Shown here: positions 41,601 to 44,600 of the stretch, in pieces
Layout of the letters: the number at the start of each line of letters is the position of its first letter
Position numbering within the stretch: position 1 is the first letter of the stretch
Assembly (NCBI RefSeq): GCF_044324875.1
Contig: NZ_CP172185.1
DNA: 64,000 nucleotides
Strand: one strand, 5' to 3'
Source of the DNA: Escherichia coli
GTDB taxonomy: Bacteria; Pseudomonadota; Gammaproteobacteria; Enterobacterales; Enterobacteriaceae
Program-made: the position numbers

Positions 41601-44600
41601 GTGTCGCCAGCCAGCAGAGCAGGGAACCGCCGCAGACCATTAGCGCGCCTTGCCAGAACGAGAACGACAGCGGGGCGCTGAGCAGCACGGCTGCAAGCGC
41701 TGAGGAAAGGACGGGCGTAAAATACGAACCTACCGCCATAATGGTGACGTTGCCATGTAATATACCGACGTTCCATGCAGCATAAGCAAATCCTAAGGTA
41801 AATGCCGCAGAGGTGAGTTTAATCATGACGGGCGTGCTAAATACCATTTCTGGTTGTGGCGTGAGAAAATAGTAAACCCACAGACTTGCTCCCGTTAGTA
41901 GGACAAAAACGGTAATTCCGTTAAATCCGCGTGCGTATTTATTCGTTACTGTGCAATAGGCTGCCCAGATAAACGCACCAATAAACGCCAGGAAATAACT
42001 CAATGGGCTGGTGGTGATATTATTGATGATTTCATCATAATGTAACCCATTGTCACCACCTAACACCCAGCAGACGCCAACCAGGGCTAATAATAATCCT
42101 GGTACAATCAGCCAGTTGGTTTTCTGACCATTAAACAGAATGGCAAAGAGAATTGTCAGGCTGGGCCACAGATAGTTCACCATACCCACTTCAATCGCCT
42201 GATGACGGGTCGCCGCATATCCTAAGGAAAGCGCCAGACAGATTTCATAGCTGACGAATAACAGACACCCGGCGAGTAAATAGCCTTTCGGGATCTGCCG
42301 AATACGCGGAAATCCAACCGTGAAGATTAACAGCAGCCCGCTTAATGAATAGATAGCAGCTGCACCGCCGACCGGGCCGAGCCCCTCACTGACACCGCGA
42401 ATCAATCCTACCATCGTGCTCCACAGGACGATCGCTATTAGCCCTATGAGCGTTGCTTTTTGTCGTGTCATGCTCGCTGTTTTGTCTCTCTTGCCGTTAA
42501 AAATTAAGCTGAATTTTATAGCATTTTTTTAACTGGCCTGTCAGGCAGTGGTGCGTTTTTCTACCGCTATTGAGGTAGGTCAATTTGCGCAGGCGGATTA
42601 TTTTGTGGCAAACACGTGTTCTTTTTGATTTCGCGCAAAAAGATTCAGAATTTTACTGTTAGTTTCCTCGCGCAGTAATACCCCTGAAAAAAGAGGAAAG
42701 CAATGGACGTCAGTCGCAGACAATTTTTTAAAATCTGCGCGGGCGGTATGGCTGGAACAACAGTAGCGGCATTGGGCTTTGCCCCAAAGCAAGCACTGGC
42801 TCAGGCGCGAAACTACAAATTATTACGCGCTAAAGAGATCCGTAACACCTGCACATACTGTTCCGTAGGTTGCGGGCTATTGATGTATAGCCTGGGTGAT
42901 GGCGCGAAAAACGCCAGAGAAGCGATTTATCACATTGAAGGTGACCCGGATCATCCGGTAAGCCGTGGTGCGCTGTGCCCGAAAGGGGCCGGTTTGCTGG
43001 ATTACGTCAACAGCGAAAACCGTCTGCGCTACCCGGAATATCGTGCGCCAGGTTCTGACAAATGGCAGCGCATTAGCTGGGAAGAAGCATTCTCCCGTAT
43101 TGCGAAGCTGATGAAAGCTGACCGTGACGCTAACTTTATTGAAAAGAACGAGCAGGGCGTAACGGTAAACCGTTGGCTTTCTACCGGTATGCTGTGTGCC
43201 TCCGGTGCCAGCAACGAAACCGGGATGCTGACCCAGAAATTTGCCCGCTCCCTCGGGATGCTGGCGGTAGACAACCAGGCGCGCGTCTGACACGGACCAA
43301 CGGTAGCAAGTCTTGCTCCAACATTTGGTCGCGGTGCGATGACCAACCACTGGGTGGATATCAAAAACGCTAACGTCGTGATGGTGATGGGCGGTAACGC
43401 TGCTGAAGCGCATCCCGTCGGTTTCCGCTGGGCGATGGAAGCGAAAAACAACAACGATGCAACCTTGATCGTTGTCGATCCCCGTTTTACGCGTACCGCT
43501 TCTGTAGCGGATATTTACGCACCTATTCGTTCCGGTACGGACATTACGTTCCTGTCTGGCGTTTTGCGCTACCTGATCGAAAACAACAAAATCAATGCCG
43601 AATACGTTAAGCATTACACCAATGCCAGCCTGCTGGTGCGTGATGATTTTGCTTTCGAAGACGGTCTGTTCAGCGGCTACGACGCTGAAAAACGCCAGTA
43701 CGATAAATCGTCCTGGAACTATCAGTTCGATGAAAACGGCTATGCGAAACGCGATGAAACACTGACTCATCCGCGCTGTGTGTGGAACCTGCTGAAAGAG
43801 CACGTTTCCCGCTACACGCCGGATGTAGTAGAAAACATCTGCGGTACGCCAAAAGCCGACTTCCTGAAAGTGTGTGAAGTGCTGGCCTCCACCAGCGCGC
43901 CGGATCGCACCACCACCTTCCTGTACGCGCTGGGCTGGACGCAGCACACCGTGGGTGCGCAGAACATCCGCACCATGGCGATGATCCAATTGCTGCTCGG
44001 TAACATGGGTATGGCTGGTGGCGGCGTGAACGCATTGCGTGGTCACTCCAACATTCAGGGCCTGACTGACTTAGGCCTGCTCTCTACCAGCCTGCCAGGT
44101 TATCTGACGCTGCCGTCAGAAAAACAGGTTGATTTGCAGTCGTATCTGGAAGCGAACACGCCGAAAGCGACGCTGGCTGATCAGGTGAACTACTGGAGCA
44201 ACTATCCGAAGTTCTTCGTTAGCCTGATGAAATCTTTCTACGGCGATGCCGCGCAGAAAGAGAACAACTGGGGCTACGACTGGCTGCCTAAGTGGGACCA
44301 GACCTACGACGTCATCAAGTATTTCAACATGATGGATGAAGGCAAAGTCACCGGTTATTTCTGCCAGGGCTTTAACCCGGTTGCGTCCTTCCCGGACAAA
44401 AACAAAGTGGTGAGCTGCCTGAGCAAGCTGAAGTACATGGTGGTTATCGATCCGCTGGTGACTGAAACTTCTACCTTCTGGCAGAACCACGGCGAGTCGA
44501 ACGATGTCGATCCGGCGTCTATTCAGACTGAGGTATTCCGTCTGCCTTCGACCTGCTTTGCTGAAGAAGATGGTTCTATCGCTAACTCCGGTCGCTGGTT

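What the first reader, a model, noticed from the sequence alone, without database searches (positions are those of the whole stretch)
43288..43350. Selenocysteine recoding site in fdnG
The alpha subunit reading frame passes through a single in-frame TGA at 43288..43290 in the conserved …ARV-U-HGP… context; the following ~60 nt should form the selenocysteine insertion hairpin. The ORF track splits the gene in two at this point.
Basis: established knowledge. Interest (0 to 1): 0.3.

Follow-up and report, generated by a model that had tools for sequence, protein, structure and literature searches.

The report
Known selenocysteine codon in fdnG
The in-frame TGA at 43288-43290 is the well-known selenocysteine codon of the E. 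coli nitrate-inducible formate dehydrogenase gene fdnG, followed by its RNA insertion hairpin; it is real, correctly interpreted and already textbook knowledge.

Summary
The observation and the interpretation are both correct. One in-frame TGA (43288-43290) interrupts a 1015-codon frame (42703-45750). That frame is E. coli fdnG, the alpha subunit of formate dehydrogenase-N. RefSeq annotates it as a single CDS running through the TGA. The solved structure 1KQF has a non-standard residue at exactly this position, 196.

Rfam SECIS_3 matches 43285-43343 at 84.3 bits, above its gathering score of 63. The essential upper hairpin is 43302-43319. It starts 11 nt after the UGA, has a bulged U at 43304, and carries G and U at the start of its apical loop (43310-43311).

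I collected 120 homologous sites from a scan of about 100,000 species' genomes, using a pattern that accepted TGA, TGC or TGT. Of these, 115 carry TGA and 5 carry a Cys codon. Among the TGA sites the upper hairpin is 96.5% base-paired and 4 of its 7 pairs show compensatory changes. Two of those pairs link synonymous third-codon positions. The five Cys homologues have lost the hairpin and give no SECIS_3 match.

Minimum free energy alone does not support the hairpin (z = -0.02 against shuffles). The case rests on the covariance model and the covariation.

Nothing here is new: interest is very low. In passing I found three sets of IS insertions in the window, including an IS200 directly downstream of fdnI.

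The parts
42703..45750 (+). fdnG, formate dehydrogenase-N alpha subunit: one 1015-residue selenoprotein CDS read through the internal TGA
   Evidence: Translation. RefSeq annotates a single CDS at the 100% identical locus. 1KQF_A matches over 1-1015 at 2399.9 bits. TIGR01553 matches profile positions 1-194 and 196-1009.
42703..42801 (+). Twin-arginine (Tat) signal peptide, MDVSRRQFFK...ALA
   Evidence: The SRRQFFK motif is read directly from the translation. The Tat-export role is established knowledge of FdnG and was not tested here.
43288..43290 (+). UGA selenocysteine codon (Sec196)
   Evidence: It aligns with X196 of 1KQF_A. TGA is at the same site in 115 of 120 homologues. The surrounding 120 nt are at least 99% identical in 5406 E. 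coli records.
43291..43301 (+). 11-nt spacer between the UGA and the upper stem-loop; its 3' part also forms the 5' arm of the lower stem
   Evidence: Coordinates computed. That an 11-nt spacing is what SelB needs is established knowledge of the fdhF SECIS and was not tested here.
43302..43319 (+). SECIS upper stem-loop, the presumed SelB-binding part: 7 bp, bulged U at 43304, apical loop GUC at 43310-43312 closed by A43309-U43313
   Evidence: -6.0 kcal/mol on its own. 96.5% of cells are paired across 69 distinct sequences and 4 of 7 pairs have compensatory changes. The hairpin is lost in Cys homologues.
43295..43330 (+). Whole SECIS hairpin in the window's own best register: lower stem 43295-43300 with 43325-43330, enclosing the upper stem-loop
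   Evidence: The MFE of the 36-nt piece is -10.3 kcal/mol. The lower stem is only 79% paired across homologues and its register varies.
43285..43343 (+). Extent of the Rfam RF01989 SECIS_3 match
   Evidence: 84.3 bits against a gathering score of 63, full-length 1-59/59.
45763..46647 (+). fdnH, iron-sulfur beta subunit
   Evidence: TIGR01582 at 482.1 bits against a cut-off of 334.7. RefSeq annotation.
46640..47293 (+). fdnI, cytochrome b gamma subunit
   Evidence: NF007558, FDH-N gamma, at 484.7 bits against a cut-off of 339. RefSeq annotation.

Best explanation
The TGA at 43288-43290 is the selenocysteine codon (Sec196) of E. coli fdnG. When the ribosome reaches the UGA, the hairpin just downstream (upper stem-loop 43302-43319) lies outside the mRNA channel. 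The specialised elongation factor SelB, carrying Sec-tRNA(Sec) and GTP, binds it. This tethers the Sec-tRNA at the A site, so it outcompetes release factor 2 and selenocysteine is inserted. Translation then continues to give the 1015-residue molybdopterin subunit, in which Sec196 is a ligand of the molybdenum. Shown here: the codon, the open frame, the structure-level RNA conservation, and the association between TGA and the hairpin. Inferred from established knowledge of E. coli selenoprotein synthesis: SelB binding, competition with RF2, and the catalytic role of Sec.
For: There is a single in-frame TGA in an otherwise open 1015-codon frame. RefSeq annotates one fdnG CDS across it in a locus that is 100% identical over 3201 nt. 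The solved FDH-N structure 1KQF_A has the same length, differs from the window's protein at only three positions (L342F, S666A, A784V), and has a non-standard residue X exactly opposite the TGA. The two halves map to TIGR01553 positions 1-194 and 196-1009. Rfam SECIS_3 is passed at 84.3 bits against 63.

All four published bacterial SECIS constraints listed in PMC13188914 are met. The apical loop is 3 nt (5 nt if the closing A-U pair is counted). The upper stem has 7 bp. G and U are the first two loop bases. The spacing from the UGA to the loop is 19 nt. The MFE is -10.3 kcal/mol.

A pattern that accepted TGA, TGC or TGT found 115 TGA and 5 Cys codons among 120 sites, from Proteobacteria, Acidobacteria, Actinomycetota and Chloroflexi. 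The upper helix is 96.5% paired with 4 of 7 pairs compensatory, and no shuffle out of 500 reached the observed covariation score. Pairs 18/30 and 21/27 join third-codon positions and still covary (GC 74, AT 27, CG 7; AT 78, CG 33). Selection on the protein cannot produce that. The Cys homologues keep the protein context but form only 2-5 of the 7 pairs, with energies of 0 to +9.7 kcal/mol, and give no SECIS_3 match. selB and selA are present in 5425 of 5426 complete E. coli genomes.
Against: The MFE of 43288-43350 is no lower than that of shuffled sequence (z = -0.02), so thermodynamics alone would not single out this hairpin. In Rfam's register the lower stem has two non-standard pairs in the enterobacterial sequence (-7.2 kcal/mol, against -11.9 in a register shifted by one). 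The lower stem is poorly conserved (79-83% paired). The sel genes are not in the window, so their presence in this particular genome is inferred from the species. No experiment was done here.
Confidence: 0.97

Rival explanations
1. The TGA is a genuine stop: either a nonsense mutation that makes fdnG a pseudogene, or a natural boundary between two separate genes of 195 aa and 803 aa.
For: A plain ORF finder splits the frame at this point. UGA is normally read by RF2.
Against: The 120 nt around the TGA are at least 99% identical in 5406 E. coli records. 115 of 120 homologues across several phyla carry TGA at the same codon and stay in frame afterwards. The downstream 819 codons remain open and match TIGR01553 positions 196-1009 at 1321 bits. 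The crystal structure is one 1015-residue chain. The second ORF's first ATG (43339) lies 16 codons into conserved sequence.
Confidence: 0.01
2. The UGA is read through by a standard tRNA (near-cognate Trp or Cys insertion) or bypassed by a frameshift, not by the Sec machinery.
For: Low-level UGA read-through exists in E. coli. Five homologues function with Cys at this position.
Against: There is no change of frame across the site. A SECIS that passes the curated model follows at the right distance. The hairpin occurs with TGA and is absent from the Cys homologues. The structure entries of close homologues are named selenocysteine-containing.
Confidence: 0.02

Closest known systems
E. coli K-12 fdnG Sec196 codon and SECIS (Berg et al. 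1991, J Biol Chem 266:22380 and 22386, cited in PMC13188914; structure 1KQF)
   Same: It is the same gene, codon position and hairpin. The 120 nt around the site are 100% identical in most complete E. coli genomes. The protein differs from 1KQF_A at three residues (L342F, S666A, A784V).
   Different: Nothing at the recoding site differs. The strain background does: IS200 lies downstream of fdnI, and there are other IS insertions that the closest complete genome lacks.
E. coli fdoG SECIS (formate dehydrogenase-O paralogue)
   Same: A 71-nt block, 43285-43355, is identical to K-12 fdoG. It covers the UGA and the whole SECIS. The SECIS_3 score is the same, 84.3 bits.
   Different: The rest of the gene is only 74.6% identical. 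The operon context differs (fdoGHI-fdhE against yddG-fdnGHI-yddM). The gamma subunit fails the FDH-O equivalog cut-off.
E. coli fdhF SECIS (formate dehydrogenase-H), the experimentally dissected model
   Same: The layout is the same if the U of UGA is numbered 1: a bulged U at 17 and G23-U24 in the loop, with an 11-nt spacer. The fdhF numbers come from my knowledge of the literature and were not retrieved here.
   Different: The sequence and the Rfam family differ. The window's match to SECIS_2 is only 28.8 bits against a gathering score of 70. FdhF is a cytoplasmic 715-residue enzyme with distant sequence similarity (1AA6_A, E = 8.7e-45).

Membership tests
Bacterial SECIS element (bSECIS model as summarised in PMC13188914, Fig. 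2A) / Rfam RF01989 SECIS_3 | An in-frame UGA at a position where homologues have Sec or Cys | tested here: met
   115 TGA and 5 TGY at the aligned codon in 120 homologous sites. X196 in 1KQF_A.
Bacterial SECIS element (bSECIS model as summarised in PMC13188914, Fig. 2A) / Rfam RF01989 SECIS_3 | An apical loop of 3-9 nt and an upper stem of 4-16 bp | tested here: met
   The loop is GUC, 3 nt (AGUCU, 5 nt, if the closing A-U pair is opened). The upper stem has 7 bp with one bulged U.
Bacterial SECIS element (bSECIS model as summarised in PMC13188914, Fig. 2A) / Rfam RF01989 SECIS_3 | G in one of the first two loop positions, followed by G or U | tested here: met
   G43310 and U43311. G23 is more than 90% conserved and U24 is invariant in 69 distinct sequences.
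Bacterial SECIS element (bSECIS model as summarised in PMC13188914, Fig. 2A) / Rfam RF01989 SECIS_3 | A spacing of 16-37 nt between the UGA and the apical loop | tested here: met
   19 nt, 43291-43309.
Bacterial SECIS element (bSECIS model as summarised in PMC13188914, Fig. 2A) / Rfam RF01989 SECIS_3 | MFE of -7.5 kcal/mol or lower | tested here: met
   -10.3 kcal/mol for 43295-43330 and -14.6 for the 50-nt stretch. This is not lower than shuffled sequence.
Bacterial SECIS element (bSECIS model as summarised in PMC13188914, Fig. 2A) / Rfam RF01989 SECIS_3 | Score at or above the curated gathering threshold of the covariance model | tested here: met
   84.3 bits against 63, full-length match.
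Bacterial SECIS element (bSECIS model as summarised in PMC13188914, Fig. 2A) / Rfam RF01989 SECIS_3 | Base pairing maintained by compensatory substitutions | tested here: met
   The upper helix is 96.5% paired with 4 of 7 pairs compensatory, and 0 of 500 shuffles reached the observed covariation score. Synonymous third positions covary.
Bacterial SECIS element (bSECIS model as summarised in PMC13188914, Fig. 2A) / Rfam RF01989 SECIS_3 | Trans-acting machinery (selA, selB, selC, selD) in the same genome | tested here: inconclusive
   None of these genes is in the window. selB (with selA adjacent) is present in 5425 of 5426 complete E. coli genomes, so its presence in this strain is a strong inference and not an observation. 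selC and selD were not checked.
Bacterial SECIS element (bSECIS model as summarised in PMC13188914, Fig. 2A) / Rfam RF01989 SECIS_3 | SelB binding and selenium-dependent read-through | not testable with these tools
   Shown experimentally for E. coli fdnG by Berg et al. 1991 (cited in PMC13188914). The sequence here is identical.
Formate dehydrogenase-N alpha subunit FdnG (NCBIfam TIGR01553 equivalog) | Full-length match above the curated cut-off | tested here: met
   The C-terminal part alone scores 1321.3 bits against a cut-off of 814.2. The N-terminal part scores 279.5 bits. Together they cover profile positions 1-194 and 196-1009.
Formate dehydrogenase-N alpha subunit FdnG (NCBIfam TIGR01553 equivalog) | Sec-containing active-site motif UHxP | tested here: met
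   ARV-U-HGP. The motif is listed for this family in PMC13188914, Table 1.
Formate dehydrogenase-N alpha subunit FdnG (NCBIfam TIGR01553 equivalog) | N-type rather than O-type operon (fdnGHI, with an FDH-N gamma subunit and the yddG / yddM neighbourhood) | tested here: met
   NF007558 scores 484.7 against a cut-off of 339. The FDH-O model NF007924 scores 268.1, below its cut-off of 341. Synteny is shown and the fdoG locus is elsewhere.

The most novel reading that the evidence does not exclude
The block of perfect identity between fdnG and its paralogue fdoG (71 nt, 43285-43355) runs about 22 nt beyond the last paired base of the SECIS, with synonymous sites frozen. Nearly all sampled enterobacterial genera share the same sequence as far as the stretch examined (43349). 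This could reflect an extra constraint not captured by the hairpin model, such as a longer SelB or ribosome contact region or an alternative pairing. It could also reflect recurrent gene conversion between the two paralogues. I did not test either reading.
Probability: 0.12. Interest if true: 0.2.

Novelty: already known. Interest (0 to 1): 0.04.

Why it matters
The practical point concerns annotation. Gene callers that treat TGA as a stop split this selenoprotein gene in two, so the site must be annotated as a recoded codon. Biologically it is the textbook example of bacterial UGA-to-selenocysteine recoding and nothing new follows from it. The comparison made here illustrates cleanly that an RNA structure inside a coding region constrains synonymous sites and even amino-acid choice. 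At residues U+6 and U+9, Ser is paired with Gly in 15 of 15 TGA-bearing homologues that have Ser at U+6. That principle is also already known.

Tried and rejected
1. Folding energy as evidence. The 63-nt stretch folds no better than shuffled sequence (z = -0.02), so I did not use thermodynamics as support.

2. Rfam's register for the lower stem. In the enterobacterial sequence it gives two non-standard pairs and -7.2 kcal/mol, while a register shifted by one gives six clean pairs and -11.9 kcal/mol. Across homologues neither register is well conserved (83% and 79% paired). I therefore treat only the upper hairpin as established.

3. SECIS_2 (RF01988) matches the same place at only 28.8 bits against a gathering score of 70. 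I rejected it as the family.

4. A tRNA next to the Paracoccus homologue (L023) might have been tRNA-Sec. ARAGORN calls it tRNA-Leu.

5. Literature searches for an open-access statement of the 11-nt spacing and the U17/G23/U24 determinants of the fdhF SECIS found none. Those details are marked as my own knowledge.

6. My first attempt at count of structure pairs failed on a dot-bracket string that was one character too long. My first PDB query failed because of the internal stop. Both were repeated correctly.

Full report
**Observation.** The window has TGA at exactly 43288-43290. It lies in the frame that opens with ATG at 42703 and closes at 45748-45750. Translation gives 1015 codons with this single internal stop, in the context DNQARV*HGPTVASLAPTFGRGAMTN.

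**Identity of the gene.** A 3.2-kb query around the site matches 5425 of 5426 complete E. coli genomes. It is 100% identical to strain GN25, where RefSeq annotates one CDS, fdnG, running through the TGA. The neighbours there are yddG upstream and fdnH, fdnI, yddM (higA), a RelE/ParE toxin gene, adhP and maeA downstream.

The solved structure of E. coli formate dehydrogenase-N (1KQF chain A, 1015 residues) aligns end to end at 2399.9 bits. It carries a non-standard residue X opposite the TGA at position 196. The window's protein differs from it only at L342F, S666A and A784V.

The two halves of the frame match NCBIfam TIGR01553 (formate dehydrogenase-N alpha) at profile positions 1-194 and 196-1009, so exactly one profile position is taken by the TGA. 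The downstream ORFs pass the equivalogs for the beta subunit (482.1 bits against 334.7) and for the FDH-N gamma subunit (484.7 against 339). The FDH-O gamma model stays below its cut-off (268.1 against 341). The gene is therefore fdnG and not its paralogue fdoG, which lies in a different operon.

**The RNA element.** Rfam's SECIS_3 model (RF01989) matches 43285-43343 on the + strand over its full length. The score is 84.3 bits against a gathering score of 63, with E = 1.3e-19. Apart from an IS200-associated sRNA model, it is the only family in the whole 64-kb window that reaches its gathering score.

Numbering the U of UGA as 1, the structure has these parts:
- an 11-nt spacer, 43291-43301
- an upper stem-loop, 43302-43319, of 7 bp
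- a bulged U at position 17 (43304)
- an apical loop, G23-U24-C25 (43310-43312), closed by an A-U pair
- a lower stem, 43295-43300 paired with 43325-43330

All four constraints of the published bacterial SECIS model are met. These are a loop of 3-9 nt with a stem of 4-16 bp, G followed by G or U at the start of the loop, 16-37 nt from the UGA to the loop, and an MFE of -7.5 kcal/mol or lower (PMC13188914, read). Here the spacing is 19 nt and the hairpin's MFE is -10.3 kcal/mol. From my own knowledge, not retrieved here, the positions U17, G23 and U24 and the 11-nt spacer match the SelB-binding determinants mapped on the fdhF SECIS.

One caution applies. The 63-nt stretch does not fold better than shuffled sequence (z = -0.02), so energy is not evidence. 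A strict motif search, TGA-N11-GGT-N5-GT-N-N5-CC, finds only this site on both strands of the window.

I scanned one genome from each of about 100,000 species with CARGCNCGNGTNTGHCAYGGNCC. This pattern encodes Q-A-R-V-(TGA/TGC/TGT)-H-G-P and so does not presuppose TGA. Of these, 115 carry TGA and 5 carry Cys codons. All stay in frame with the conserved GPTV..L...FGRGAMTN continuation. The TGA-bearing sites come from Gamma-, Beta- and Alphaproteobacteria, Acidobacteria, Actinomycetota, Chloroflexi and Desulfovibrionaceae.

On the 69 distinct TGA-bearing sequences, the upper helix is paired in 96.5% of cells and 4 of its 7 pairs show changes on both sides. None of 500 shuffles reaches the observed covariation score. 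Sliding the 3' partners by 1-3 columns drops pairing from 88-89% to 24-65%.

Two of the covarying pairs, columns 18/30 and 21/27, join third-codon positions of Val with Ala/Gly and of Ala/Ser with Leu. Their states are GC 74, AT 27, CG 7, GT 5, and AT 78, CG 33, GC 2. Protein-level selection cannot explain this. The RNA constraint reaches the protein as well. All 15 TGA-bearing sequences with Ser at U+6 have Gly at U+9, whereas 4 of the 5 Cys homologues combine Ser with Ala.

The five Cys homologues keep the protein context but form only 2-5 of the 7 pairs. The conserved structure has an energy of 0 to +9.7 kcal/mol in them, against -6.0 in the window. Rfam finds SECIS_3 in every proteobacterial, acidobacterial and actinobacterial TGA locus I tested and in K-12 fdoG. 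It finds none in the five Cys loci.

The lower stem is much less conserved (79-83% paired) and its register shifts between lineages. I regard only the upper hairpin as firmly established.

**Within the species.** The 120 nt around the site are at least 99% identical in 5406 records. selB, with selA adjacent, is present in 5425 of 5426 genomes. The sel genes are not in the window, so their presence in this strain is inferred.

**Mechanism.** What is shown here is a conserved in-frame UGA, an uninterrupted full-length frame, and an RNA hairpin under structural selection that occurs with TGA and is lost with Cys. What is inferred from established knowledge is the rest of the pathway. SelB, carrying GTP and Sec-tRNA(Sec), binds the apical part of the hairpin while it is still outside the ribosome's mRNA channel. 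It delivers Sec-tRNA to the A-site UGA in competition with RF2 (general mechanism as summarised in PMC4513850). Sec196 then serves as a ligand of the molybdenum in the bis-MGD cofactor, as in 1KQF.

**Rival readings.** A true stop or pseudogene, a pair of separate genes, ordinary read-through and frameshifting are each contradicted by the conservation, the unchanged frame and the association between TGA and the hairpin.

**Comparison with what is known.** This is the known fdnG recoding site itself, first described by Berg et al. 1991 (cited in PMC13188914). Its SECIS is identical to that of fdoG. A 71-nt block, 43285-43355, is the longest identical run between two genes that are otherwise 74.6% identical, and the next-longest run is 27 nt. 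That block extends about 22 nt beyond the last paired base. This is the only slightly unexplained detail and I did not pursue it.

**Verdict.** The site is already known, and interest is very low.

**Things seen in passing.** Compared with the closest complete genome, the window carries three sets of insertion sequences.
- An IS200C copy lies at about 47523-48227, directly downstream of fdnI and abutting the 3' end of higA/yddM. It has a Y1 transposase ORF and gives the Rfam STnc490 match.
- An IS3-family element, which I judge IS2-like from its size and ORF layout, lies at about 36060-37387.
- A 9.2-kb block at 14456-23636 holds IS21-family and IS66-family elements and a truncated IS3-family copy.

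Noticed in passing
window 47523-48227: An insertion of about 705 nt, absent from the otherwise 99.9% identical strain GN25. 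It lies between fdnI (which ends at 47293) and the 3' end of higA/yddM (48232-48516, - strand). It holds a Y1 (IS200-like) transposase ORF at 47615-48124 and matches IS200C copies elsewhere in E. coli at 94-98% identity. No listed genome has it at this site. The Rfam STnc490 match (47533-47656, 146.4 bits) is the left end of this IS200.
   Followed up: partly
window 47367-47483: Weak matches, below gathering score, to naRNA4 and ES036 (REP-type palindromes such as GGCCGGATAAGGCG...CGCCGCATCCGGC) sit between fdnI and the IS200. This is probably a REP/BIME cluster at the end of the operon.
   Followed up: no
window 36060-37387: A 1.3-kb insertion relative to GN25, between the leucine-rich-repeat protein gene and narU. 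It carries overlapping ORFs of 136 aa (HTH_Tnp_1) and 301 aa (HTH_21 + rve + rve_3) on the - strand. This is an IS3-family element with the size and layout I recall for IS2; the IS2 assignment was not tested.
   Followed up: partly
window 14456-23636: A 9.2-kb block absent from GN25 at the edge of its type VI secretion Vgr/PAAR region. It holds an IS21-family pair (15161-17579: an rve/Mu-transposase-C protein and an IstB ATPase), a three-ORF IS66-family element (17608-20121), and a truncated second copy of the IS3-family element (20148-21118). The rest of the block (21.1-23.6 kb) was not examined.
   Followed up: partly
window 43285-43355, compared with L002 7171-7241 (K-12 fdoG): A 71-nt block is perfectly identical between fdnG and its paralogue fdoG, in genes that are 74.6% identical overall (the next-longest run is 27 nt). 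The identity continues about 22 nt beyond the last paired base of the SECIS, with synonymous sites unchanged.
   Followed up: partly
loci L003-L122, codons U+6 and U+9 (window 43306-43308 and 43315-43317): Amino-acid covariation is imposed by the RNA helix. Ser at U+6 always goes with Gly at U+9 in TGA-bearing homologues (15 of 15). Cys homologues combine Ser with Ala (4 of 5).
   Followed up: yes
L027 4171-4193 and L058 747-769 (Desulfovibrionaceae homologues): These two homologues carry TGA in the same ARV-U-HGP context but have a different downstream sequence (GGTACCGGCTCTGGCAGAGTC) and no SECIS_3 match. They presumably have a different SECIS type.
   Followed up: no
L011 1920-2111 (Yersinia aldovae): Rfam's FdoG-1 5'-UTR thermometer (RF02778, 228 bits) lies upstream of the Yersinia homologue. 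No such match was found upstream of the window's fdnG, even at E <= 10.
   Followed up: no
E. coli genome collection: In each of four searches (fdnG region, 120 nt around the SECIS, the fdnI-yddM intergenic region, and selB) exactly one of the 5426 genomes has no match. I did not establish whether it is the same genome each time, nor which one it is.
   Followed up: no
window 48232-48794, - strand: A higA(yddM)/RelE-ParE-family toxin-antitoxin pair with overlapping stop and start lies immediately beyond the IS200. Only 22 E. coli records are at least 99% identical to the window's fdnG region, and most are 95-99%, so the window comes from an uncommon lineage.
   Followed up: no
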